Part shown: in pieces, positions 12,679 to 28,494 of the stretch
Layout: every line of letters starts with the position of its first letter
Numbering within the stretch: the stretch's first letter is position 1
Source of the DNA: a virus
Taxonomy: Duplodnaviria; Caudoviricetes
Virus record (IMG/VR): IMGVR_UViG_3300030511_000001
Coordinates: 17,634-81,633 of that record
Strand: one strand, 5' to 3'
DNA: 64,000 nt
The notes under the pieces: generated by a model
Databases searched by the model: none
Told to the model about the DNA's origin: nothing
The model's input: only the letters and a program-made list of their open reading frames with translations
Program-made: the position numbers and the translations under genes

Positions 12679-12956
12679 TGCCTTCGGCGGCGAAGTGAGA
12701 GAACGACAGCGGATCAAGGCGCCCTCGCCTTTCTCGGTCAGGGGGCACATGCTTGCGGAGCATGCGCAGCGGTTCAAACCCGCACGAGCTAACACGCTCA
12801 ACGCTCAGAAGTTGAAAGGTACGAACGATGACAAGCTCAGTGCTCATGCTTCAAAGCTCGGTAAAACCCGCCATTTGACTGGCCGCGGCGGAAACGTCGC
12901 GGAGGCGCCCACCGTTGCCGGCGCCTTCTCAGGTCGGCGGCTGCTGTTCGGAGGCA
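12679..12956 (+). ncRNA. candidate ~280-nt structured ncRNA
   Basis: 5' and 3' ends pair over ~14 bp; GAAA tetraloop hairpin, T-loop-like hairpin, GCTCA repeats; no credible ORF. Confidence 0.65.
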
Positions 12957-12960
12957 TGTT

Positions 12961-13833
12961 TTGAGCGGGCGCGTCCTCGAGATGCGCACAAACGCGGAGG
13001 GCGGCGTCCGGATCATTGAGGATGCGAGCGTCGGCCCGCCGGATGTGGAGGATGTCGTACGCCGGTACGGCATCCGCCCGACATCCATGGCGGTCTACTA
13101 CGACGGCTCGGGCATCGCCAAAACAGAGCTGCACTTCGATCCGCCGGCGAGGCCGTTCACGCCCACGATCCCCGGACGCTTTCAACCGCCGATCGGCCCG
13201 TCTCTCGCCGAGGCGATGGAGAACTTCGGCTCCGGAGTGCTCAACGGGTTGCGCACGCAGCTCCGCAACGAACGGATGATCCGCAAGGCGTACGAGATGG
13301 GCGCGACCGTGCGATCGAACGCGAAGCCCGAGCAGTGGACGTGCGGCCGCTGCGTGCTCGACTGGCCCGACGAGTCGCCGGTCTGTCTGATGTGCGGCAA
13401 CACCGCGGTTGCGCGGCATGTCCCGCCGCAGTCGATCCGTATCCCCGCGCTTCCGCCAATGGGTGAGACGCGCGCCGTGCGCGTCGCGATCGACGGGAAA
13501 GTCGTGGGCGAGGTGCCGGTCGGCTCCTTTCTGGTGCTGAACGAAGGACCGACGCACGAACTGTCCGGCGTCACGATCGGCCACGGGTACGAGCTCGAGG
13601 CCGAGGAAGTCGCGCCGGCGCCGGTCTACGGCTTCGGCGTCTCGCCGGACGGTCTCACCGTGGATCCCGCACCGTTCGGAGCGTTGCCCGCGCCGCTGGC
13701 GAAGGCGAAGCCCGAGACGTGGGCCGAGAGTTACGAGACCATGTTCCGCATGCTCGGCAACGCTCGCGCCCTCGAGGCCATGGGCGTGCCGGAACCTTCA
13801 CGCCCGTACCGACACACCTTCCGAGTGAGGTAG
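12961..13833 (+). CDS. hypothetical protein with Zn ribbon
   Basis: TTG start after GGAGG; WTCGRC...CLMC. Confidence 0.6.
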   Translation: MSGRVLEMRTNAEGGVRIIEDASVGPPDVEDVVRRYGIRPTSMAVYYDGSGIAKTELHFDPPARPFTPTIPGRFQPPIGPSLAEAMENFGSGVLNGLRTQLRNERMIRKAYEMGATVRSNAKPEQWTCGRCVLDWPDESPVCLMCGNTAVARHVPPQSIRIPALPPMGETRAVRVAIDGKVVGEVPVGSFLVLNEGPTHELSGVTIGHGYELEAEEVAPAPVYGFGVSPDGLTVDPAPFGALPAPLAKAKPETWAESYETMFRMLGNARALEAMGVPEPSRPYRHTFRVR

Positions 13834-15159: not shown

Positions 15160-15519
15160 ATGGAAACGACGAACGCAGTAGCGCAGCCCTCCTCCCACGC
15201 CATCCCGACCGCTCCCGTGCGCATCGTGAAGCGTTGCGCGTCCACCATCGCGGTCGGCGATCAGATCATGCCGCCGGCGCGCGAACTGCGCCTCTGGCTC
15301 CGCCGCAATCTCGCCGAGAAGGGCATGACCGAGGCCGAGGCCATCATGACCGTGACGGAGGTGAAGCAAGGCGCCCCGGACAAGCGCGGCCCGTGGCTCC
15401 TCGTCACGGCCTTCATGCCCGATGCGTGGTATGCCGAGTGCCCGAGCGGCCCGTACCCGTGGACGTTCCACATCCGCCCTGACACGCTGTGGCCGGTGGT
15501 CGTCGGAGGTGCGCGGTGA
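15160..15519 (+). CDS. hypothetical early protein, leaderless
   Basis: METTNA start 6 nt after the -10 box. Confidence 0.7.
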   Translation: METTNAVAQPSSHAIPTAPVRIVKRCASTIAVGDQIMPPARELRLWLRRNLAEKGMTEAEAIMTVTEVKQGAPDKRGPWLLVTAFMPDAWYAECPSGPYPWTFHIRPDTLWPVVVGGAR

Positions 15520-15662
15520 ACGCGCCGAAGATGGTCCCCGTCTACCGCGGCAAGCGCGCGCGAACGCTCGTCGGACACCTGCTGATGTTCTGGTGCAACT
15601 CGGCGGGCCGGTACGTGAGCATTCCGGGCGCCTCCTACTTCGTGCCGGCGGTGCAGCAGTGA
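15516..15662 (+). CDS. small hypothetical protein (48 aa)
   Basis: GTGA coupling at both ends; SD GGAGG. Confidence 0.5.
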   Translation: MNAPKMVPVYRGKRARTLVGHLLMFWCNSAGRYVSIPGASYFVPAVQQ

Positions 15663-15865
15663 GCGCCCCGAAGCACGTTCGCACGCACCGCTTCGACGCC
15701 GACACGCTCTACGTGCAGGACACGGGGATCATCAAGTGCGGCGCCCACGTCGGAACGGAAGCCACGTACACGCCCGAGCGGTGGGACGCCCTGACGTCCG
15801 CCGAGATCGAGAAGATGGAGCTCGCGTGCGAGGACACGCGCTGCGCTAGGAAGGAACGGAGCTGA
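15659..15865 (+). CDS. hypothetical protein
   Basis: GTGA overlap. Confidence 0.55.
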   Translation: MSAPKHVRTHRFDADTLYVQDTGIIKCGAHVGTEATYTPERWDALTSAEIEKMELACEDTRCARKERS

Positions 15866-17966: not shown

Positions 17967-18120
17967 ACGTCGCGTAAGCCGGCATGACGGAGCGCGACTT
18001 GGGGGAGGTCGCGGGTTCGAATCCCGTCCCCGGCTCCGCCGGGGTAGTCGCGGCGGGAAAGTCTGACGGAAACTCTCGACTCTTTCCGTCACACCTGACG
18101 GAACGCGCGAAGTCCCGGGC
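17967..18120 (+). ncRNA. circularly permuted tRNA-like RNA (YrlA/Y-RNA-like)
   Basis: T-arm GCGGG-TTCGAAT-CCCGT, then CCCCGGC-TCC-GCCGGGG closed acceptor stem, then TA-GTCG D-like stem; dedicated promoter. Confidence 0.65.
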
Positions 18121-19253: not shown

Positions 19254-20186
19254 ATGCAGCGTTTCCACGTGCGCTCGGGCTGGGCCCATTTCCGCGCAAC
19301 CATGGCTGAGCCGTTTTCCGGTCGTCGTTCCAGCACTCAGTTCTTCGAACCCCTGTGCATCGACGATCCGAACGCCGGCGGCGGTGGGGGCGGTGGTGGG
19401 GGCGGCAACGACGGCGGCGGGAACAATGGCGGCGACGGTGGGGCCGGCGGCGCTGGTGGCGGCAATGCAGACGACGAGGCGGCAAAGAAGGCCGCCGAGG
19501 ACCGGAAGCTCGCTGCGGAAGCGGCCGGGTGGCGCACGAAGTATCGGGATGAGCAGAAGAAATTCGGCGATTTCCAGACTTCCGCCACGGCGCAAATTGA
19601 TGCGCTGAAGGCCGAACTCGAGGAGATGAAGTCGCGCGGCAATGGCAACGGCAACGGGAACCCCCAGCCTGGCGCCAACGGCCAACCCGCGATCGAAACC
19701 CACCCCGAGTTCGTGAAGATGCAGCGCCAGCTCACCGAAGTGACGAAGTCGCTGACGGCCGAGCGCGAAACCCTCGCGAAAGAGCGTGCGACGCTCAAAA
19801 ACGAGAAGATTCAGCGCGCGGTCGGCGAGGTGGCCGGCGAGGGCAAGTTCCTCCTGCCGACCATCTTCCGCAAGGTGCTGGCCGAGAAGGTCGACATCGC
19901 CGCGGACGGCGCCCTCGTCATGAGGGTTCCCAACGAAGTCGGCGGCACCGATGAAGTGCCGTTCACCCTCGACAACGTCCTCAAGTACCGCCCGATCGAC
20001 GAGTTCGACAGCTTCCTGCCGTCGAACGGTTCCAACGGTTCCGGCAACAACGGCGGCGGCAGCGGCAAGGGCCGTCAGAACGACGGTATCGACTGGGCGA
20101 AGGTCGAAGGCCCCGGAATGGACCTCGACTACATCCAGAAGAACGCGCAGAAGATCGCCGCCGCAAGGCTCGCACGACAGCAGTAA
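19254..20186 (+). CDS. capsid scaffolding protein
   Basis: SD GGAGG; Gly/Asn-rich linker and coiled coil; directly upstream of the coat gene. Confidence 0.75.
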   Translation: MQRFHVRSGWAHFRATMAEPFSGRRSSTQFFEPLCIDDPNAGGGGGGGGGGNDGGGNNGGDGGAGGAGGGNADDEAAKKAAEDRKLAAEAAGWRTKYRDEQKKFGDFQTSATAQIDALKAELEEMKSRGNGNGNGNPQPGANGQPAIETHPEFVKMQRQLTEVTKSLTAERETLAKERATLKNEKIQRAVGEVAGEGKFLLPTIFRKVLAEKVDIAADGALVMRVPNEVGGTDEVPFTLDNVLKYRPIDEFDSFLPSNGSNGSGNNGGGSGKGRQNDGIDWAKVEGPGMDLDYIQKNAQKIAAARLARQQ

Positions 20187-20273
20187 CCAAGATCATTGCC
20201 GCAAGGGCTCAGCAGGGCTGAGGCAATGGGGCGCTGATCTCCAACTAGCACAAACAGTTAGGAGACAACGCAG

Positions 20274-21500
20274 ATGGCTAACCAGTTCGACAAAATCGCG
20301 AGCGATATCACCTTCTTCGGTACGCTCGTCCTCGCGCAGCTCCGTCAGCAGCTCGCGCTCGTCAATCGCGTCAACACCGACTACAAGGGCGCTTCCTCGG
20401 CGGCCGGTCGGAAGATCAGCATCCCCGTGGTCGAGATGTCCGGCAGCGCGCAGACGCGCGGCATCGGCGGCGGCGTCACCCGCAACAGCGGTAAGGCGAC
20501 GGCCGTCGAGGTGGTGATGCAGCAGATCACCTACTCGTGGGAGCTCGACAACCTCGAGGAGACGTTCTCCAACGTCAACACCGTCCTCGAGATGGCGCAG
20601 CGCGCCGCGATCAAGATGGCGGACGGCGTCGACGCGCTGCTCACCGGCCTCTGGCCGCTGATCCCGTATCGCGTCGGCCCGCTCGACGGCTCGGGTCTCT
20701 TCAACCCGACCGACAAGGTGAAGGCGTTCGCTCAGGCCCGCAAGGCCCTGAAGGACAACCTCGCCCCGACCGACCGTCTGTTCATGATCCTCGGCACCAC
20801 CGAGGAGCTGAACCTCACCACGCTCGACATCTACACCCAGGCGCAGCAGTCGGGCGATCCGACGCAGCTTCGCACGGGTGCACTCAAGCCGATCATGGGC
20901 GTGCAGCCGTACGCCTCGCAGGCCGTGCCGACGAACATCACGTTCACGCCGGCCGACAACACCGGCTGGAACACCCCGACCACCTCGGGCGTGAACGCCA
21001 TCGGCGCGACGACGCTGAACGTGGCCGGTCTCGCCAATGGCGCGACCATCACCAAGGGCAGCATCTTCACCATCGCCGGCGGCGGCACCATGCCGAACGG
21101 TCAGCCGCAGCCGTATTCGGTCACGGCCGACGTCGTCGCCAGCGGCGGCGGCGCCGCGGCGCTTCCGATCTCGCCCGCGCTGAAGGCGGCGCCGGCGAAC
21201 GGTGCGACGATCACGCCGGTGGCCTACACCGGCACCCACTCCATCAACCTCATCGCGGACCCGAGCGCGTATCTGTTCGTCGTTCGTCCGCAGGCCGCGG
21301 TTCCTCCGGGCGCCGGCGTCCTGCAGATGGACTTCACCGACCCCGTGTCGCAGCTCACCTTCCGTCTGTCGATCGAGGCGAACATCGCCCGCGACAACGC
21401 TGCGGGCCGCGCGTACACCACCGTGTGGACGCTCGACCTGCTCGCCGGCGCGAACATCGTTCGTCCGGAGCTGGCGGTGCGCGCCGAGGGCGAGGCGTAG
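20274..21500 (+). CDS. major capsid protein, P22 coat-like
   Basis: 408 aa; MANQF start; insertion domain IFTIAG...YSVTADV..ALPISPAL; position after scaffold. Confidence 0.8.
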   Translation: MANQFDKIASDITFFGTLVLAQLRQQLALVNRVNTDYKGASSAAGRKISIPVVEMSGSAQTRGIGGGVTRNSGKATAVEVVMQQITYSWELDNLEETFSNVNTVLEMAQRAAIKMADGVDALLTGLWPLIPYRVGPLDGSGLFNPTDKVKAFAQARKALKDNLAPTDRLFMILGTTEELNLTTLDIYTQAQQSGDPTQLRTGALKPIMGVQPYASQAVPTNITFTPADNTGWNTPTTSGVNAIGATTLNVAGLANGATITKGSIFTIAGGGTMPNGQPQPYSVTADVVASGGGAAALPISPALKAAPANGATITPVAYTGTHSINLIADPSAYLFVVRPQAAVPPGAGVLQMDFTDPVSQLTFRLSIEANIARDNAAGRAYTTVWTLDLLAGANIVRPELAVRAEGEA

Positions 21501-21535
21501 TCGGTTGTTCTCTCGTTCACATAGTCGCTTTGGGC

Positions 21536-21569
21536 ACGGCGGGGCTAACACCCCCGCCGTCGCTTTTTC
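21536..21569 (+). terminator. intrinsic terminator after the capsid gene
   Basis: ACGGCGGGG/CCCCGCCGT stem followed by CGCTTTTT. Confidence 0.7.
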
Positions 21570-21581
21570 CGGAGGCGGCCG

Positions 21582-21902
21582 ATGAAGCGGCCGATGACCG
21601 ACACGTGGCCGGAGCGCATCTACGTCGCCGCGCGCGGCGAGTGCGTCTTCACGTCCGTGCACGATGCCGACTCCGGCGTCTCACTCCCGAACACCCAACG
21701 CGTCGACCTGTCGATCGGCTGCGAGGGGTTCATCACGGCCACCGTCACGGCGCTCCGCGTCGACGCCGAGGGCCAGATCGAAATCGACGTCGACGAGCAA
21801 CGCGCGGCGACATTCACCCGCACCTTCATCGTGCAGCCATTCGAGCAGTTCGGCTTCACGTGCGAGCCCGCGGAAACCCCGGAGGCCACCGATGAGCAGT
21901 GA
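21582..21902 (+). CDS. hypothetical protein
   Basis: SD GGAGG. Confidence 0.55.
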   Translation: MKRPMTDTWPERIYVAARGECVFTSVHDADSGVSLPNTQRVDLSIGCEGFITATVTALRVDAEGQIEIDVDEQRAATFTRTFIVQPFEQFGFTCEPAETPEATDEQ

Positions 21903-22599
21903 TCCGCAGACCACCCACGCCGGCGCTACGCCTGGCACGAAGCCCGAGCTCTCGCTCTCGTCGCGAGCGTTGGATCTCATCCTCGAGTACGAGGGTTTCG
22001 ACCGCGGCGGGTGGCCTGGTGGCGCCTCGGGCATCACGATCGGCTACGGCTACGACCTCGGCTACCACACGCTCGGTGAGTTCGCGAAGGACTGGCGCAC
22101 GCACCTGAGCATCAACGACTACCAGAAGCTCCGCGCGTGCGTCGGCATCAAAGGCACGCGCGCGCAGGCCCGTTCGCGCATCCTCAGCGGCATCAAGATC
22201 AGCCGCGAGGCCGCACGAGCGGTGTTCGCGAGCGCGTCGATTCCGAAGGCGATCACGGCGACACTCGCCGCGTTCCCTGGCGTCGAGAAGCTGCCGGCCG
22301 ACGCCGCCGGCGCGCTCATCTCGCTCGTGTTCAACCGCGGCGGGCGTCTTTCGGACAACGATCCTCGGTTGCAGGAACGCCGCGAAATGCGCGCGATCCG
22401 CGCGGCCGTGGCGGCGGGCGACCTGATGGAGATCGCGATGCAGCTCCGCTCCATGGTTCGTCTGTGGGAGGGGAAGGGCCTGGGTGGCCTCATTCGCCGG
22501 CGCGAGGCCGAGGCCGCCCTCGTCGAATCCTGCATCGAGGGCGCGCCCGGCGCCCCTTCCACCACACCCGCCAAGGCCACGGGCGCCGCGGCGAAATAA
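21892..22599 (+). CDS. endolysin, T4-lysozyme/pesticin-C-like muramidase
   Basis: ILEYEG...WPGGASGITIGYGYDLG, SLVFNRG, GLIRRREAEA. Confidence 0.85.
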   Translation: MSSDPQTTHAGATPGTKPELSLSSRALDLILEYEGFDRGGWPGGASGITIGYGYDLGYHTLGEFAKDWRTHLSINDYQKLRACVGIKGTRAQARSRILSGIKISREAARAVFASASIPKAITATLAAFPGVEKLPADAAGALISLVFNRGGRLSDNDPRLQERREMRAIRAAVAAGDLMEIAMQLRSMVRLWEGKGLGGLIRRREAEAALVESCIEGAPGAPSTTPAKATGAAAK

Positions 22600-22609
22600 C
22601 GGAGGTTCC

Positions 22610-23044
22610 ATGCGTCACCTGACCCGCACCGTTCTCCTTCTTCTCACGCTTCTCACCCTGGCCGGCTGTTTCGCCTCGAGCGGATCGACGCCGGCGCCGG
22701 TGGTGACGCCGCCCGACACCGCGACGTCGCCGGCGGACGAGATGAGCAAGCTGCCGGACCTGCTCAAAATCACCACGCCCGAGCAAGCCGAGGACGTCTT
22801 CTTCTCCATCGTCAAGATCGTGAAGAAGACGAGCGACGCCGTCGAGGCCGAGCCGATCAAGACGCCGGCCGACGAGAAGGCGCACAAGGCCGTGAAGGAT
22901 GCCGTCCGCACCTTCAAAGCCGCGGCCCGTACCGTCTATCCCGCGATCGAGCTGTGGCGAAGCGTCGGCGATCGCGCCACTTGGGACCGCGAGGCGCCGA
23001 AGTTCCTCGCCGCCGCGGTCAAAGTCGCAACGGAGGTGAAGTAG
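22610..23044 (+). CDS. lipoprotein (possible spanin component)
   Basis: Lipobox LAGC after a hydrophobic signal; directly after the endolysin. Confidence 0.7.
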   Translation: MRHLTRTVLLLLTLLTLAGCFASSGSTPAPVVTPPDTATSPADEMSKLPDLLKITTPEQAEDVFFSIVKIVKKTSDAVEAEPIKTPADEKAHKAVKDAVRTFKAAARTVYPAIELWRSVGDRATWDREAPKFLAAAVKVATEVK

Positions 23045-23046
23045 CC

Positions 23047-23262
23047 ATGCCGAAGCTGAGCATTTCCGATCCGACCGTCCGCGCAGTGCTCGTGAAGGCG
23101 CTGAAGATCGGCGTCAAGACGTTCGTCCCCGGCGGGGGCGCCATCGTCGCCGGCGCTGAGGCGTTGTGGGAGGCGTACCGCGACGCGCTGATGAACGAGT
23201 TCAGCGTGCCCGTCGAGGAGCGCGCCGCGCTGCTCGAGTGGATCGCCACCGACGACGAGTAG
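23047..23262 (+). CDS. small hypothetical protein in the lysis cluster
   Basis: SD GGAGG; 71 aa. Confidence 0.6.
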   Translation: MPKLSISDPTVRAVLVKALKIGVKTFVPGGGAIVAGAEALWEAYRDALMNEFSVPVEERAALLEWIATDDE

Positions 23263-23349
23263 ACCGCCATCACCGTCCACCACTGACCGGGGCGGCCTCG
23301 CCTGATGCGCTGGCCGCCGCCGGATCCCGACTTCTACAGGAGGTTTTTC

Positions 23350-24054
23350 ATGAGCGAAACAGCCACGATCCTACCGGGCGAGCAGCGCCCGATGGTGTGG
23401 ATGTACATGCCGCCGGACGGGACGCCGATGCCGTGTCTGGCCGACAAAGTCGCCTACGCGCGCGGCCTCGGATACGAGGAATGCAACCCGCCCGACGCGG
23501 AGCGTAAGCCCGTCAGCGACGTCATCCCCGAGGAGACCGCCGCCGACCACGAGGAGCGCGTCGCGCGCGAGCTCGAGGAGCGGCAGGCCGCCGTGGCCGA
23601 GCAGCTTGCGGCGATCGGCGTGGTGCGGCCGCCGAACATCGGCTGCGCCGACTGCGGCGGTTCTGGACTTTGCCCGAAAGGCGCCGTTGCGCCGTGCTGG
23701 ACGTGTTATCCCGAGGCCCGCGAGGCCGCTGAAGCCGCGGCGAAGGGCCCCAACCTCGAGGACGACTCGCCCACGCTCGGCGGCAGCGACAACGGCGACG
23801 TGATCGACGGCCTGCCGGCCGACACGACCACGATCACCGTCACCGGGACCGGATTCGAGCCCACGAACACCGTGAAGCTCGACACGACGACTCCGCGGAG
23901 CTGCAATATGGCCGGCTGCAAGGGCCTCTGCGGAATCTGCCCGCCACCGAAGAAGGTCACGGTGCGCGCGGGGCGTGAGCTGAACAAGAATCGCCGCGCC
24001 CTCGGCCTCGACCCTCTCAAGATCGTCGACGGCGTCGTGAAAGGCGGTGCGTGA
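23350..24054 (+). CDS. hypothetical protein with two Cys clusters
   Basis: SD GGAGG; CADC..C..CWTC and C...C...C motifs. Confidence 0.6.
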   Translation: MSETATILPGEQRPMVWMYMPPDGTPMPCLADKVAYARGLGYEECNPPDAERKPVSDVIPEETAADHEERVARELEERQAAVAEQLAAIGVVRPPNIGCADCGGSGLCPKGAVAPCWTCYPEAREAAEAAAKGPNLEDDSPTLGGSDNGDVIDGLPADTTTITVTGTGFEPTNTVKLDTTTPRSCNMAGCKGLCGICPPPKKVTVRAGRELNKNRRALGLDPLKIVDGVVKGGA

Positions 24055-24536
24055 TGCAGGAGCCGACCATCACCACGCCCGTCATCATGGGCGTCGACCC
24101 GGCGGGACCGGAGGGCGATCGCACCGTCGTCCGCGCCTTTCCGCGTGCTGCTGTAGAGCAGCTATCCGGCATCTCGGGAGATGCTGAAGAGCAGCCGATT
24201 GACAGCCAAACGGCTGCCGATCGGATCAACAGCAGCCTCCCGCCCGTCCAGGCGAAGCGGCCGAATGTCGCGCTCATGAAGAAGTGGAGCGCCGACCCGG
24301 TCAAGTTCGCGCACGACATCGGCGTGAAGCTCGACCGCGAGGAAGCGAAGGTTCTCCGGCGCGCGATGCGCGGCGACATGCCCACCGGACGCCGGAAGAA
24401 GGACATCCTCGAGGCGGTGCGCGTGAAGATCGAAAACGCGCTGCAGCGCATCCACGAAGCCGACACCGCCGGAACGCTCGTGCGTCCCCAGGCCGTGCCG
24501 TCGCTCGAGCCGGAGGTGTCCGATGGCGGCGAGTGA
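24051..24536 (+). CDS. hypothetical protein
   Basis: Coupled overlap; W.ADPVKFAHDIG motif. Confidence 0.6.
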   Translation: MMQEPTITTPVIMGVDPAGPEGDRTVVRAFPRAAVEQLSGISGDAEEQPIDSQTAADRINSSLPPVQAKRPNVALMKKWSADPVKFAHDIGVKLDREEAKVLRRAMRGDMPTGRRKKDILEAVRVKIENALQRIHEADTAGTLVRPQAVPSLEPEVSDGGE

Positions 24537-25062
24537 GCTGACGATCGACGTCTCCGGGCAGCTTCGCGAGTGGTACGACAACCCGATCGCCTTCACCGAG
24601 GCGCTGATCCTCGGCCGACCGATGAACCGCCACGAGATGCGCGTGGTCAACGCGTTGTTTTCCGCCGGGCATGAGACACCCGACCCCGCGCGCGACATCA
24701 TGGAGTATCTGAAGCCCCAGGCGTTGCGGATCGTCGCGGCGCTCGGCCTGAACACCGACTCCGGCCGCCGGCGACGCCGGAAGGCCGGCCATCTCGAGAC
24801 GTTGCGCGCGTTTCGCCAGCAGCCCGACATCTACCCGGCGCTCCGCTATGAGCACCGGTGGATTCGCTCGCGCTGCGGCTTCTGCCGCGCGCTGTACGCC
24901 TCGGAAACGTTCATCAGCTTCGTGCAGCTCATGACCGGACGCCGGATGTACGTGCTCGAGCGCGAGGACGTGCTCGACTGCGGCCACCCGTCCGCCTTGC
25001 TGTACCCCGTGGAGTGGGAGCGCGATGGCCGGCCGGTCCCCTGCGCCAGCAAGGGCGCGTGA
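24523..25062 (+). CDS. hypothetical protein
   Basis: SD GGAGG; WYDNPIAF motif; CGFC motif. Confidence 0.6.
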   Translation: MAASELTIDVSGQLREWYDNPIAFTEALILGRPMNRHEMRVVNALFSAGHETPDPARDIMEYLKPQALRIVAALGLNTDSGRRRRRKAGHLETLRAFRQQPDIYPALRYEHRWIRSRCGFCRALYASETFISFVQLMTGRRMYVLEREDVLDCGHPSALLYPVEWERDGRPVPCASKGA

Positions 25063-25372
25063 GATCGAACCGGAGCGCCGGCGCGAGCTCGTCGAGCACG
25101 TCCGGCGCCGCGCTTTCGAGCGCATCGGCTCCGATTTCGAGATTACCGACTCGCGGTACGACGAACTGCGCCGGCGGTGCCGTGAGCGCCGCGGGCGCCA
25201 TGTCGGCGGTCGTGGCACGGGGGAGATTTGGCGCCTCGTCGTGTGGGGTGGCGTCGTCCTCTACGCCATCTTCGTCCGGGCCGATGACGAGCTCGTGACC
25301 CTTGTAAGCGAGGAGATGTTTCGGGAAAACTGGGTTGCGACGTATCCGTCCAACGGCCGCAGCAGGAAGTGA
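25025..25372 (+). CDS. hypothetical protein
   Basis: 115-aa ORF filling the gap; start uncertain. Confidence 0.45.
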   Translation: MAGRSPAPARAREIEPERRRELVEHVRRRAFERIGSDFEITDSRYDELRRRCRERRGRHVGGRGTGEIWRLVVWGGVVLYAIFVRADDELVTLVSEEMFRENWVATYPSNGRSRK

Positions 25373-25381
25373 GGAACGACC

Positions 25382-25864
25382 ATGGCGCTCACCAGCGAGC
25401 AGATCGACGTCATTCGACGGCAGTACATCCGCGACCTTTGGAAGCCGGCGGTGCCCAACGTCTCGCCGGCGGAAGGGCTGTCGCACTTCAACCTCGCGAA
25501 CAAGCGGGCGTTCATCAGCGACGAAGGGCTGCATGCGAAGGCGGACCAAGTCAGCCGCGCGTTTCGCGATGAGCTCTCCGGCGTGTACGAGGACGAGTAC
25601 TCCCGCCTGACGCGCGGCGGCGTTTCCGAGTCGGTGGCCGAGACCGACGCGACCGCGCTGCAAAACGACGCCTTCTATCGGCTCATCCGAGCTGCCGTGT
25701 ACGAGGACATGATGCTCGATGCCGGCTACGTCGGCTCCATCGCCGACAACGACCAGCGCACCGCCCTGTTCAAGACGTGGGAGAAACAGATCATCCGCGA
25801 TCGCCAGTTCACGCGCCAGCGCACGACGCCGGCGCTGCGATCGCTGCCGCTCGAGCGGTTCTGA
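25382..25864 (+). CDS. putative head-tail connector/adaptor
   Basis: Helical 160-aa protein just upstream of the virion morphogenesis gene; SD GAGGA. Confidence 0.55.
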   Translation: MALTSEQIDVIRRQYIRDLWKPAVPNVSPAEGLSHFNLANKRAFISDEGLHAKADQVSRAFRDELSGVYEDEYSRLTRGGVSESVAETDATALQNDAFYRLIRAAVYEDMMLDAGYVGSIADNDQRTALFKTWEKQIIRDRQFTRQRTTPALRSLPLERF

Positions 25865-25872
25865 GGTGCGCC

Positions 25873-26376
25873 ATGCCGTTCGGAGTCACGACCACATTCA
25901 CGGGCAACGCCGGCGGGAAGCTGCGCGATCTTGCGCGCCGTATCGTCGAGACGCGGCCGCTCGTCGACGCGGCCACGCTCCGCGCGAGCGAGTCCATGAA
26001 GCGGAACATCCAGCAGTCGCGGAGCCCGGAGGGCGAGCCGTACGCGCCGCTCTCCGAATTCACGCTGCAGAACCGAACCGGCGACAGCATGATCCCCCTG
26101 AAGGACACGCTGATGCTGTTCCACAGCATTCATCCGGAAACGCGCAGCGATGTCACTGGGTGGGCTGGGCCCCTCGGCCTCGACGCGTACTACTACGCCT
26201 ACCAGAATCAGGGTACGAGCAAACGCGGCAACTTCCGCAAGGGCGAGACGGTGACGCCTGGCATCAAAGCCCGGCCGTTCATCGGCATCCGCGATGAGGA
26301 TTTGCCGGGCTACCAGGAAGACGCCGCGCGCTTCGTGCGCGCCGTGCTGCTCGTGACCGCCGGGAGATTCAACTGA
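25873..26376 (+). CDS. virion morphogenesis protein (Mu gpG / tail completion S-like)
   Basis: SPEGEPYAPLS..T...PLKDT..L..SI...YA.YQNQG...IKARPFIGI. Confidence 0.8.
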   Translation: MPFGVTTTFTGNAGGKLRDLARRIVETRPLVDAATLRASESMKRNIQQSRSPEGEPYAPLSEFTLQNRTGDSMIPLKDTLMLFHSIHPETRSDVTGWAGPLGLDAYYYAYQNQGTSKRGNFRKGETVTPGIKARPFIGIRDEDLPGYQEDAARFVRAVLLVTAGRFN

Positions 26377-26891
26377 TGCCGTCCTATCCGATCGTCGATC
26401 CCGATGCGTTCCTCACGGTGAACCGTCTCGCCATCTTGCAGCTCCTCCGCGAGATTCCGTACCTCGACCCGACGCAGGGCGGCACGCTGACGTTCGTCAC
26501 CGACCCGCGGACCTCGTTCGACTGGACGACATACACGCCGCCGGCGATGGTGCTGGCGCCGCGCGGTTCCGTGCTCGGCCACGCCGAGAGCAAACAGCAG
26601 GACGGGTGCGTTTTCGAGGAGGACTTGCAGTGGGCGCTGTTCGTGGTCGGGCGCAACTACGCGCTCGACGGCAGCGGCGTCGCCGACATCGCGCCAGGCG
26701 AGCCGACCGTCGAGGTGATGCTCCACCACGCGCGGATCGCACTCTACGGCCGCGTGGCGATGCTCTCGCCGCGGGCTGTGAAGGTCATGCCGGCCAACCC
26801 GCCGTTTTCCTCGCTCCCTCTCGAGCCGACGCGCGTGGTCTATCAGATGAACATCCGCACGAATTGGCTCATCCAGGGCCCGGTGCCGTGA
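26376..26891 (+). CDS. putative tail terminator protein
   Basis: Size and position after the morphogenesis gene; C-terminal VVYQMNIRT strand. Confidence 0.55.
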   Translation: MPSYPIVDPDAFLTVNRLAILQLLREIPYLDPTQGGTLTFVTDPRTSFDWTTYTPPAMVLAPRGSVLGHAESKQQDGCVFEEDLQWALFVVGRNYALDGSGVADIAPGEPTVEVMLHHARIALYGRVAMLSPRAVKVMPANPPFSSLPLEPTRVVYQMNIRTNWLIQGPVP

Positions 26892-27322
26892 TCCGACTTC
26901 CGCACGTCCGACAGGAGGATCGGTGGGGCTGCACGATCGCCGTGGTGGCAATGGTCACAGGGTGGAGCTATCGGGACGTCCGCGCGCTGTTCCCCACAAG
27001 CGTCGCTGAGCGCGAAGGTCTGATGCTGTGGGAGGTGTTCCAGACGTTCGCATGGTTCGGCTACGCGCTGCGTGTGTTCGGCCAGCAGAAATATGCCTTC
27101 TGGCCGGAGTGCGAGCGAGCTGCCGCCGGCGAGCCGTTCGCCGACGTGCACGTGTGCGAGGTTGTCGATTTCGAGGGCGCGGACGGCCATCATCTCGTCG
27201 TAATGCTCGCTGATGGCTCCGTGCTCGATCCGCTCCGCGAGCAGCCGCGCCGATTGTCGGACTATCACGCCGTCGTGTACGTCGCGGGCGTCTATCCGAT
27301 CGACCCGCGGCCAGCGCCATGA
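26888..27322 (+). CDS. papain-like cysteine peptidase (C39-like)
   Basis: VRQEDRWGCTIAVVAMV (Q,C) ... HHLVV (H) ... VLDP (D). Confidence 0.7.
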   Translation: MIRLPHVRQEDRWGCTIAVVAMVTGWSYRDVRALFPTSVAEREGLMLWEVFQTFAWFGYALRVFGQQKYAFWPECERAAAGEPFADVHVCEVVDFEGADGHHLVVMLADGSVLDPLREQPRRLSDYHAVVYVAGVYPIDPRPAP

Positions 27323-27549
27323 CGCACTCCATCATCATCAGCGAGTCCACGCCGTTCATCCTGGCCGACACGTGGTGCGGGCCGCGCTACATCGGCCGGC
27401 GACGGTGCTTCGCGTGTGGAGCTCGAGCACGGCGACGCCACCGCGTGACGCTAGTGCTGGTGCATCTCGCGACGCTGGACGTAGCACCCGCGTACGTGCA
27501 GCCGCGGCGCTGGCCGGTCTGCTGGCGGTGCGCCCGCGAGCTCCGGTAG
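27319..27549 (+). CDS. small Zn-finger protein
   Basis: CFAC...CWRC; ATGA overlap. Confidence 0.55.
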   Translation: MTHSIIISESTPFILADTWCGPRYIGRRRCFACGARARRRHRVTLVLVHLATLDVAPAYVQPRRWPVCWRCARELR

Positions 27550-27693
27550 CTCCTCGTCGATCGGCTGCTGCGCGGCGTGAATAATTCGGCGCATAAAATG
27601 CGCGCGAAAAGACACGGTGCTAAGCATTCTGCGAGGTAAGCCTTTCCGGTGCAGTGGTTTCAGCATGCCGTGGCCACGCCGCGCTGCAGTGAA

Positions 27694-27873
27694 TCAATCC
27701 GCCGTGCGGAGGCGAACCGCGACGATGACTCCGGCAGCTTCGTACGCTCTGCGCCGGATTTCACGCTGATGCTCCTCGAGGGCGCGGATGACCTCCTCGT
27801 CGGGCAGTCGGAACACGAGCCCGGAGACAGGATCGGCGTACGGATTGAGGTTCGGCGTGGCGTCGTCGGGCAT
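27694..27873 (-). CDS. small hypothetical protein, likely leaderless
   Basis: MPDDATP start 7 nt after GCGTAGAAT. Confidence 0.5.
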   Translation of the reverse strand: MPDDATPNLNPYADPVSGLVFRLPDEEVIRALEEHQREIRRRAYEAAGVIVAVRLRTAD

Positions 27874-27888
27874 GTGCGAGATTCTACG

Positions 27889-28010
27889 CGGGGCGGGCAC
27901 GGAATCGAACCGTGCACCTCCGCGGCAGAGCCCTCCCGGCATTCACTCCGGCGACCGACCCGCGGAACCGACTGAAGGCCGGCCTCCGACCCACTGGAGA
28001 CGACCACCCC
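27889..28010 (-). ncRNA. tRNA-Sec-like RNA with a truncated anticodon loop and a giant variable arm
   Basis: 7-bp acceptor GGGGTGG/CCGCCCC, 6-bp D stem, CTTCA loop, T-arm GCACGG-TTCGATT-CCGTGC, G73; TAGAAT 6 nt upstream. Confidence 0.7.
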
Positions 28011-28019
28011 GCGCCGATT

Positions 28020-28459
28020 CTACGTGTTCGCGATGCGCACGCGCGTGCTGTCGAACAGCTTGAACGAGGTATCCCCGACGTGCGCGCAGGTCGCGCCCCA
28101 AATGATGTGCACGCGCGTCACCTTGCCGATCGGTTCGTCCCGATCGTTGAGGAGCGTGTCGCCGGGGTGGAGCTCGTCGGGCGAGATGGAGATCGCGCGG
28201 TGCGCGGTTGCACCCCTGGCAGCGGGAGCTCGCCACGCTGGCGCGCGGCGGCCACAGCCTGTCCCATACGCGACGTCGACGGCGCAGTCGCGCAGTCGCG
28301 GCAGATGCCGTCCAGAAACTCCTGATTCGTGCTGTGGGCGATCATGCCCGGCAGATTGCCGGCGGGGCACTCGCGACAGAGCGCCAAGAGATCGGCGATG
28401 TTCAGGGTGTAGCCGAGGACTTGCTTGCGGGGGGCGGCGGCCTTCGTCGTGTTTTCCAT
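28020..28459 (-). pseudogene. leaderless early gene split by a 1-nt frameshift (or recoded)
   Basis: MENTTK frame runs into low-complexity sequence; the -1 frame carries AISISPDELHPGDTLL...; total 440 nt. Confidence 0.5.
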
Positions 28460-28465
28460 GCGCCC

Positions 28466-28494
28466 AATGTAATGCTAACCGGTAAGCATGTCAA
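28466..28494 (-). promoter_or_regulatory. class I promoter/operator
   Basis: TTGACA-17-TACATT with the palindrome; ATG 6 nt downstream. Confidence 0.85.

What the first reader, a model, noticed from the sequence alone, without database searches (positions are those of the whole stretch)
27889..28022. tRNA-Sec-like RNA with a 5-nt CUUCA anticodon loop and a ~50-nt variable arm
Seen on the minus strand: GGGGTGG-TC-GTCTCC(AGTGGGTC)GGAGGC-CGGC(CTTCA)GTCG-GTT-CCGCGG...CCGCGG-AGGT-GCACGG(TTCGATT)CCGTGC-CCGCCCC-G, with TAGAAT 6 nt upstream and no encoded CCA. Established: tRNA-Sec has a 13-bp acceptor+T helix, a 6-bp D stem, a long variable arm, G73 and a CUUCAAA loop, and E. coli selC contains TCGTCTCCGGTG (here TCGTCTCCAGTG). 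Here the helix is 7+6 bp, two loop nucleotides are missing and the variable arm is greatly enlarged. Inference: a non-decoding selC derivative acting as a decoy for SerRS/SelA/SelB or anticodon nucleases, or as a processing scaffold.
Basis: partly seen in the sequence, partly recalled or inferred. Interest (0 to 1): 0.8.

Follow-up and report, generated by a model that had tools for sequence, protein, structure and literature searches.

The report
Phage tRNA look-alike, recently inserted
An uncultivated high-GC phage carries a 122-base RNA gene built like a selenocysteine tRNA but with a stunted anticodon loop and an oversized extra arm. A close relative lacks exactly this piece, so it is a discrete insert that most likely mimics a tRNA rather than reads codons, though nothing yet shows it is expressed or used.

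Summary
The sequence is exactly as described: a 122-nt tRNA-shaped element on the minus strand (28010..27889), with TAGAAT 6 nt upstream and no CCA. Standard detectors miss it: ARAGORN finds nothing, and Rfam tRNA-Sec gives 30.4 bits against a cut-off of 47.

New here: it is a presence/absence polymorphism. A related phage contig (L017) has both flanking genes, about 80% identical, but an empty site with one copy of CGTAGAATC. In the window, 136 nt (GGCGC, the element, and a second CGTAGAATC) sit there. The 9-mer holds GTAGAAT, the -10 core of this phage's recurrent promoters.

Only the acceptor/T minihelix folds robustly. The middle has two equally stable folds: a cloverleaf with a 5-nt CUUCA loop, or one long rod. 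I found no in-frame TGA read-through, no SelA/SelB in the record, and no homologue of the element.

Best reading (about 0.4): a tRNA-Sec-derived, non-decoding tRNA mimic acquired as a small cassette. An inert relic is nearly as likely.

This scan has already noted sequence-unrelated, non-decoding tRNA look-alikes with stunted anticodon arms and big extra arms in other phages.

The parts
27889..28010 (-). 122-nt tRNA-Sec-like RNA element (G1 at 28010, discriminator G at 27889)
   Evidence: Sequence. RF01852 30.4 bits over model 1-91. MFE cloverleaf. Bracketed by the indel against L017.
28004..28010 (-). Acceptor 5' strand GGGGTGG. It pairs with 27890-27896 (CCGCCCC), giving 7 bp.
   Evidence: Pair probabilities 0.92-1.0.
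27897..27915 (-). T arm: 6-bp stem GCACGG/CCGTGC with consensus loop TTCGATT. It stacks on the acceptor, giving 13 bp.
   Evidence: Pair probabilities 0.99-1.0. Best T-arm-like motif in the window.
27982..28001 (-). D-arm region. The register is ambiguous: 6-bp GTCTCC/GGAGGC with an 8-nt loop, or a 4-bp stem.
   Evidence: GTCGTCTCCAGTG matches E. coli selC in 13 of 14 nt.
27967..27983 (-). Anticodon-like hairpin: 6-bp stem GCCGGC/GTCGGT with the 5-nt loop CTTCA (27973-27977)
   Evidence: MFE. Pair probability is only about 0.29, because an alternative pairing with the extra arm competes.
27920..27965 (-). Oversized extra (variable) arm: CCGCGG, 34 nt, CCGCGG. The apical loop AGTGAATG contains TGAA, which is complementary to TTCA of the anticodon-like loop.
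   Evidence: inverted repeat I2.
28011..28015 (-). 5-nt leader GGCGC, part of the inserted segment
   Evidence: Alignment A1.
28016..28024 (-). Upstream copy of the 9-mer CGTAGAATC. It holds the stop codon TAG of the upstream gene and the -10-like TAGAAT (28017-28022), which ends 6 nt before G1.
   Evidence: repeat D3.
27880..27888 (-). Downstream copy of CGTAGAATC. Its TAGAAT lies 7 nt before the ATG of the next gene.
27694..27873 (-). Downstream 59-aa gene (P0001), no known family. Its homologue P0003 in L017 is 85% identical.
28020..28459 (-). Upstream small gene(s) of the same operon. A leaderless MENTT ORF (28459-28118) is followed by a C-terminal domain in another frame (to 28020). That domain is homologous to a free-standing 65-aa gene in L017 and to the C-terminus of a fused gene in L002.
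28466..28494 (-). Operon promoter TTGACA-17-TACATT, 6 nt before ATG 28459
27601..27616 (-). Terminator-like hairpin with a T run, closing the small minus-strand operon
   Evidence: The sequence is conserved in L002 and L017.

Best explanation
The element is a tRNA-Sec-derived, tRNA-shaped RNA gene. It entered, or is retained in, this phage as a discrete 136-nt cassette: a 5-nt leader, the 122-nt RNA, and a second copy of the 9-mer CGTAGAATC. It sits inside a small accessory operon between the head and tail genes.

Shown: the insertion polymorphism, the intact 13-bp acceptor/T minihelix with G73 and a consensus T loop, the non-standard middle, and the absence of any sign of UGA recoding.

Inferred:
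- It is transcribed with the operon, and possibly from the TAGAAT that places G1 at the expected start site.
- It is trimmed by RNase P and 3' processing, and receives CCA from the host.
- It then acts as a non-decoding tRNA mimic. The anticodon-like loop is either a 5-nt loop closed by C-G or is sequestered by pairing with the enlarged extra arm.
- The most plausible use is to occupy a host tRNA-binding factor, for example a tRNA-cleaving defence nuclease. Ribosomal decoding and interference with the Sec pathway are less plausible.
For: - G000 is an 81.6-kb virus record.
- Every helix is intact and the T loop is consensus.
- RF01852 is the best Rfam clan member.
- The D-arm matches E. coli selC in 13 of 14 nt.
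- ARAGORN calls tRNA(tca) only when both the loop (+AA) and the extra arm (trimmed) are reverted in silico.
- L017 has both flanking genes but an empty site with a single CGTAGAATC. L017 bases 607-617 align to both sides of the insert.
- GTAGAAT occurs 10 times in the window against 0.93 expected. It is the -10 core of about 12 promoters, four of which have a leaderless ATG 7 nt downstream. That is the same spacing as for the gene after the element.
- The element lies inside an operon with a strong promoter and a terminator-like site.
- TGA is the commonest stop (67 of 109) and there are no read-through candidates.
- No SelA, SelB-wing, CCA-adding enzyme or reverse transcriptase was found in the record.
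[quoted passage not shown] Irregular, non-translating Sec-like tRNAs exist in bacteria (PMC5389517).
Against: - It is a singleton. No homologue turned up in IMG/VR, JGI metagenomes, GTDB species genomes, GenBank phages or the protein collection. There is therefore no covariation and no evidence of selection.
- The two relatives do well without it.
- There is no expression data.
- The folding energy is not exceptional (z -1.24), and the middle has two competing folds.
- The upstream TAGAAT lacks the conserved ATTCGTC... spacer motif and a -35 element.
- No target for a decoy is known, and the host is unknown.
- The adjacent gene looks frameshifted, so indel errors in this contig cannot be excluded.
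Confidence: 0.4

Rival explanations
1. Inert relic. A tRNA-Sec gene picked up by illegitimate recombination, already crippled by the loop deletion and extra-arm expansion, is carried as neutral cargo and will be lost.
For: It is a singleton, absent from both relatives. The anticodon loop is non-functional. Standard detectors miss it. It has no dedicated terminator. An allo-tRNA pseudogene in one Edaphobacter strain, and translationally inactive allo-tRNA species in soil metagenomes, are documented.
Against: All helices, about 33 bp in the cloverleaf, are intact, and the T loop is consensus. The two changes are clean indels, and the added 34 nt extends a helix rather than disrupting it. A decaying gene would be expected to show stem mismatches first. 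Because the insertion is recent, this argument is weak.
Confidence: 0.3
2. Cis-acting operon element. The tRNA shape serves as an RNase P/RNase Z cleavage site that separates the upstream message from the P0001 message, and the duplicated TAGAAT gives P0001 its own start. The RNA itself has no trans function.
For: It sits between two co-oriented genes, with no terminator after it and 16 nt before the next ATG. The TAGAAT-7 nt-ATG spacing is preserved for P0001.
Against: L017 expresses the same gene pair without it, with TAGAAT 8 nt before the ATG. A processing site needs no D arm or 46-nt extra arm.
Confidence: 0.12
3. A genuine decoder. It would be a tRNA-Sec or UGA suppressor with a giant variable arm, either because the true loop is CTTCAAA (an AAA to A assembly error) or because the C-G pair opens to give a 7-nt loop. 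In the second case the loop would be CCUUCAG with anticodon UUC and C33.
For: It has a 13-bp branch, G73, a long arm and UCA in the loop. Adding AA and trimming the arm gives an ARAGORN tRNA(tca) call. At least 21 ARAGORN tRNA-SeC genes occur among 81 viral-contig loci sampled. The neighbouring gene shows an apparent 1-nt frameshift, which is compatible with indel errors.
Against: TGA is the main stop codon and no in-frame TGA with coding signal beyond it was found. No Sec genes are in the record. The loop+AA version alone is still not called. A Watson-Crick 32-38 pair and C33 are not features of working tRNAs (textbook knowledge). The acceptor/T split is 7/6, not the bacterial 8/5.
Confidence: 0.08
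4. A small mobile element in its own right (MITE- or SINE-like, tRNA-derived) that inserts with a 9-bp target duplication. The tRNA shape would reflect its origin or its mobilisation mechanism.
For: An exact 9-bp direct repeat flanks a 127-nt insert, and the relative shows an empty site. The ends are complementary over about 10 bp (I1).
Against: There is a single copy in this genome and none elsewhere. The terminal complementarity is just the acceptor stem. No transposase or reverse transcriptase is in the record. The repeated 9-mer is a promoter core that recurs in this phage, so recombination at promoter motifs, or deletion between repeats in L017, explains the pattern equally well.
Confidence: 0.07

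Closest known systems
Bacterial tRNA-Sec (selC; Rfam RF01852)
   Same: 13-bp acceptor/T stack, G73, a 6-bp anticodon-type stem, CUUCA, a long extra arm, and a D-arm 5' half nearly identical to E. coli selC.
   Different: The stack is 7/6 rather than 8/5. The loop is 5 nt rather than CUUCAAA. The extra arm is 46 nt rather than about 20. It scores 30.4 bits where true tRNA-Sec scores 50-86. ARAGORN found all 32 real selC genes tested but not this one. There is no Sec context.
Allo-tRNAs, selC* tRNA-Cys and irregular Sec-like tRNAs of bacteria and phages (Mukai et al. 2017, PMC5389517)
   Same: These are Sec-like bodies with long arms that standard finders miss. Some are inactive in translation, have five-stem junctions, and lie near mobile or toxin-antitoxin genes.
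   Different: Those have 12-bp branches (8/4 or 9/3) and 7-nt anticodon loops. This one has 13 bp (7/6) and a 5-nt loop, and no sequence relation was found.
Phage-encoded tRNAs used against tRNA-cleaving defences (T5/T6 tRNA-Tyr against retron-Eco7 and Septu; PMC13096335)
   Same: A phage-borne class II type tRNA body whose altered variable arm matters. A decoy or supplement role has been proposed. This phage also carries an atypical tRNA-Tyr.
   Different: Those are working tRNAs with normal anticodon loops. Here decoding is unlikely, and no defence target is known.
Phage T4 stable RNAs rnaC/rnaD (species 1 and 2), and the conserved non-decoding tRNA look-alikes noted by this scan in enterobacterial phages
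   Same: tRNA-shaped phage RNAs with a good acceptor/T domain, a stunted anticodon arm and a large extra arm, of unknown function. T4 is cited from my own knowledge; the scan notes come and are unchecked.
   Different: Those are conserved families inside tRNA clusters. This one is a singleton in a structural-gene accessory cassette, with no sequence similarity to GenBank phages.
Phage morons (independently acquired promoter-bearing inserts between conserved genes)
   Same: A discrete insert between two conserved genes, preceded by a promoter-like -10 element and absent from a close relative.
   Different: Its cargo is an RNA, it has no terminator of its own, and its promoter is only a -10-like hexamer.

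Membership tests
tRNA-Sec (RF01852) | Score at or above the Rfam gathering threshold (47 bits) | tested here: not met
   30.4 bits. Ordinary tRNA-Ser score 38-44 bits and real tRNA-Sec 50-86.
tRNA-Sec (RF01852) | 13-bp acceptor/T branch (8/5 in bacteria) | tested here: inconclusive
   13 bp are present, but as 7/6, or as 8/5 with a U-C mismatch at the eighth pair.
tRNA-Sec (RF01852) | 7-nt anticodon loop CUUCAAA with anticodon UCA on a 6-bp stem | tested here: not met
   The 6-bp stem is present, but the loop is CUUCA, 5 nt. Infernal shows a 2-nt deletion.
tRNA-Sec (RF01852) | 6-bp D stem with a 4-nt loop | tested here: inconclusive
   There are three possible registers: 6 bp with an 8-nt loop, 6 bp with one mismatch and a 4-nt loop, or 4 bp with an 8-nt loop.
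tRNA-Sec (RF01852) | Long variable arm and G73 (SerRS identity elements) | tested here: met
   A 46-nt arm and G at 27889. Serylation itself was not tested.
tRNA-Sec (RF01852) | Sec machinery or UGA/SECIS targets in the genome | tested here: not met
   No SelA or SelB-wing match in the record. No TGA read-through candidates. The host is unknown and the record is 79% complete.
Canonical tRNA (RF00005 / ARAGORN) | Detected by standard tRNA finders | tested here: not met
   ARAGORN finds none at default settings and gives only inconsistent calls at relaxed thresholds. RF00005 finds no match in G000 at E <= 1.
Allo-tRNA (Mukai et al. 2017) | 12-bp branch in 8/4 or 9/3 configuration | tested here: not met
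   The branch is 13 bp, 7/6. Definition taken from PMC5389517.
MITE-type mobile element | Target-site duplication, terminal inverted repeats and multiple copies | tested here: inconclusive
   A 9-bp direct repeat and an empty site were found. The inverted ends equal the acceptor stem only. There is a single copy and none elsewhere.
Intron-containing tRNA (bulge-helix-bulge type) | An intron at 37/38 flanked by two 3-nt bulges around a 4-bp helix, giving a canonical tRNA when removed | tested here: not met
   Removing positions 40-69 would give a 92-nt Sec-like RNA with loop CUUCAGU. However, there is no bulge-helix-bulge geometry, ARAGORN's intron mode gives no consistent call, and no bacterial enzyme for such splicing is known.

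The most novel reading that the evidence does not exclude
A self-contained, promoter-carrying tRNA-Sec-derived decoy cassette that moves between phages. Its enlarged extra arm presents UGAA, a mimic of the UGA codon. This can pair with the RNA's own UUCA loop, so the RNA toggles between a cloverleaf and a rod while its invariant acceptor/T minihelix titrates a host tRNA-directed defence or processing factor.
Probability: 0.1. Interest if true: 0.8.

Novelty: new variant of a known kind. Interest (0 to 1): 0.45.

Why it matters
Phage-encoded tRNAs are now known to be weapons against tRNA-cleaving bacterial defences. This scan keeps turning up phage RNAs that keep a tRNA body but give up the anticodon arm. 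This case adds two things: an instance in an unrelated, uncultivated high-GC phage lineage, and a clean before/after pair (filled and empty site) showing that such an RNA can be gained or lost as a 136-nt cassette at a promoter motif. If the RNA is expressed and stable, it would be a compact test object for what non-decoding tRNA mimics do. If not, it documents how tRNA pseudogenes enter phage genomes.

Tried and rejected
- **Exact-word scans for the element.** The anticodon region, the 3' 23-mer, the 5' 20-mer and the D arm gave no hit in IMG/VR. The arm-apex 17-mer gave 7 hits, all in unrelated contexts at about the chance rate by my rough estimate. A gapped pattern allowing any loop of 3-9 nt gave no hit in JGI metagenomes. 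The 3' 20-mer gave 5 hits in GTDB species genomes; none is a tRNA, so they look like chance.
- **Other similarity searches.** blastn against GenBank phages gave nothing significant. A search for spurious ORFs translated across the element gave nothing.
- **Search for more relatives.** Searches with the tail-tube protein, P0001 and the upstream 65-aa protein found only two other contigs of this lineage.
- **Comparison with real tRNA-Sec.** I compared 32 genes and 81 viral loci carrying CTTCAAA, a long arm and GGTTCGATTCC. Only generic similarity appeared.
- **Host inference.** Tail-tube homology gave only 22-27% identity hits in 401 Pseudomonadota genomes and one Vibrio phage, so I abandoned it.
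- **Stop-codon recoding.** Rejected: abutting ORFs are separated by all three stops and have their own starts.
- **Intron model.** Rejected.
- **Internal duplication as the origin of the arm.** A 12/14 direct repeat exists (D1), but by my estimate it is not beyond chance.
- **attP or provirus-edge tRNA.** Rejected: both flanks are phage genes collinear with L017.

Full report
**What is there.** The parts are:
- a 7-bp acceptor, GGGGTGG/CCGCCCC;
- a D region;
- a GC-rich 6-bp stem closed over CTTCA;
- a 46-nt arm bounded by two CCGCGG hexamers;
- a 6-bp T stem with the consensus loop TTCGATT;
- a G discriminator, with no CCA.

TAGAAT ends 6 nt before G1. The window is part of an 81.6-kb IMG/VR virus record, estimated 79% complete, with 67% G+C. 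It carries head, tail-tube, Mgm101-like and methylase genes.

**Is it a tRNA?** ARAGORN finds nothing in the window. Rfam finds nothing at gathering thresholds. With permissive settings the only match is RF01852 tRNA-Sec, at 30.4 bits, full length, with a 2-nt deletion in the anticodon loop and a 36-nt insertion in the variable arm.

I calibrated that score. In four bacterial genomes, tRNA-sized matches of 70-88 nt score 27-47 bits on RF01852; the two I read are tRNA-Ser, at 38 and 44 bits. Real tRNA-Sec score 50-86 bits, and ARAGORN found all 32 real selC genes I extracted. So the score shows that the element is tRNA-like, not that it is Sec. This calibration includes unpublished genomes: G006, G023, G053, G087 and G125 among the loci, and G093 and G153 in the tally. 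No sequence from them is given here.

The features that point to Sec ancestry are these:
- the 13-bp acceptor/T stack;
- G73;
- the 6-bp stem under CUUCA;
- GTCGTCTCCAGTG against GTCGTCTCCGGTG in E. coli selC;
- an in-silico reversal: ARAGORN calls a tRNA(tca) only when the loop is given AA and the arm is trimmed, and not with either change alone.

**Context.** The element lies in a small minus-strand operon wedged between plus-strand head and tail genes. The operon has a promoter TTGACA-17-TACATT (28494-28466), a leaderless ATG at 28459, small genes, the element, a 59-aa gene (27873-27694), and a terminator-like hairpin (27616-27601).

**The key result.** The 59-aa protein has one relative in 5.8 billion clusters (P0003, 85% identical). 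It is encoded on a 15.6-kb Logan contig (L017). L017 is collinear with window 19472-28193 at 78-89% nucleotide identity. L017 carries both genes that flank the element but not the element itself.
- Its junction reads CGTAGAATC-gctgcgc-ATG.
- The window has CGTAGAATC-ggcgc-[122 nt]-CGTAGAATC-tcgcac-ATG.
- L017 bases 607-617 align to both sides of the insert.
- Rfam finds no tRNA in L017.

A second relative (L002/L016, tail tube 81% identical) has different small genes in this cassette and no match to the element anywhere in its 83-kb record. The element is therefore a 136-nt indel whose limits coincide with the predicted tRNA ends. That is independent evidence that it is a discrete unit. The direction of the event cannot be polarised. 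It could be an insertion with a 9-bp duplication, or a deletion between 9-bp repeats.

**The 9-mer is a promoter core.** GTAGAAT occurs 10 times in the window against 0.93 expected, and 14 times in the whole record. Twelve copies are on the plus strand. Most of these follow a conserved ATTCGTC(G/A)T... spacer and a TTGnnn -35 element. Four have a leaderless ATG exactly 7 nt downstream. The only two minus-strand copies are those that flank the element. The downstream one keeps the 7-nt spacing to the ATG of the 59-aa gene. The upstream one puts G1 at the seventh nucleotide, which is the usual start-site distance. Both lack the conserved spacer motif, so promoter activity is inferred rather than shown.

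**Structure.** Only the acceptor and T helices are robust, with pair probabilities of 0.92-1.0. The 84 nt between them have two iso-energetic solutions. One is the cloverleaf with the 5-nt loop (-62.4 kcal/mol, pairs about 0.3-0.4). The other is a single long irregular rod (-62.1 kcal/mol, pairs about 0.5-0.6). In the rod, UUCA of the loop pairs with UGAA in the apical loop of the extra arm. The overall energy is not unusual for the composition (z -1.24). Without homologues, the two folds cannot be distinguished.

**Decoding.** A 5-nt loop closed by C-G, or a sequestered loop, is not compatible with normal decoding; this is textbook tRNA geometry.
- TGA is the commonest stop codon in frames with coding signal (67 TGA, 30 TAG, 12 TAA).
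- Every same-frame continuation after a stop has its own start codon.
- The record has no SelA, SelB-wing, CCA-adding enzyme or reverse transcriptase.

**Homologues.** None were found by any route available; the searches are listed under Tried and rejected. Viral contigs do carry ordinary-looking tRNA(tca) genes, at least 21 among 81 loci sampled, but none resembles this element.

**Interpretation.** The element is a tRNA-Sec-derived RNA cassette in a variable accessory operon. Because every helix is intact and both departures from tRNA-Sec are clean indels, I favour a non-decoding tRNA mimic (0.4) over an inert relic (0.3). The margin is small, because there is no conservation or expression evidence. 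The other rivals are a cis-acting processing element (0.12), a true decoder or an assembly artefact (0.08), and an autonomous small mobile element (0.07).

A decoy for the Sec pathway itself seems pointless for a phage. A target among tRNA-directed defence nucleases is more plausible. [quoted passage not shown] Bacteria also carry Sec-like tRNAs that are not used in translation (PMC5389517).

**Caveats.** The sequence rests on one assembly. The gene just upstream shows an apparent 1-nt frameshift relative to L017, so an AAA to A contraction in the loop cannot be excluded. The host is unknown.

**Relation to earlier scan notes.** Unchecked notes from this scan describe conserved, non-decoding tRNA look-alikes with stunted anticodon arms and large extra arms in other phages. 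The present element shares that architecture but no sequence, and it is a singleton.

Noticed in passing
window 28118-28230 (-), compare L017:415-612 and L002:4850-5190 (-): The domain ISISPDELHPGD...VRIANT (ending at 28020) has no in-frame start codon. It is reached only by a frame change from the MENTT ORF (28459-28118). In L017 it is a free-standing 65-aa gene with a GTG start overlapping the previous stop, and in L002 it is fused to an N-terminal domain. So this is either a real frameshift mutation, programmed frameshifting, or an indel error in the contig.
   Followed up: partly
window 3825, 4270, 8089, 28505, 49339, 51853, 58842, 59617 (+), and four more upstream of the window: A strongly conserved promoter-like motif, (TTGnnn)-N-cATTCGTC(G/A)T(G/A)(A/G)(T/C)GTAGAAT. 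Four copies have a leaderless ATG exactly 7 nt downstream. The conserved spacer looks like a regulator-binding site inside the promoter.
   Followed up: partly
G000 13122-13209 (+), 4.4 kb before the window start: ARAGORN calls an 88-nt tRNA-Tyr(GTA) with an encoded CCA and an unusual 5-bp D stem. RF00005 does not match it at E <= 1. The relative G001 instead has a normal tRNA-Gln(TTG) at 27980-28052. tRNA content therefore differs between these phages.
   Followed up: partly
window 18011-18044 (+) and 12769-12783 (+): There are two further T-arm-like hairpins in intergenic DNA. At 18011 a 5-bp stem with loop TTCGAAT is followed by CCCCGGC-TCC-GCCGGGG. At 12769 a 4-bp stem carries loop TTCAAAC. 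GTTCRAWYC occurs 12 times in the window against 5.3 expected.
   Followed up: partly
L017:269-423 against window 15516-15667: A 49-aa gene of the L017 cassette is 85% identical in nucleotides to a stretch 12 kb away in the window. Small accessory genes are therefore shuffled between cassettes in this phage lineage.
   Followed up: no
L108, L117, L127 (viral contigs): Several GC-rich viral contigs carry what look like 3' halves of tRNA-Sec (CTTCAAA, a long arm and a T arm) without a recognisable 5' half. These may be attachment sites of elements that integrate in selC.
   Followed up: no
window 27942-27694 (-): The ATG in the apical loop of the extra arm (GGAG-TGA-ATG) is in frame with the 59-aa gene. 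It would give an 82-aa N-terminally extended form. This is probably coincidence.
   Followed up: no
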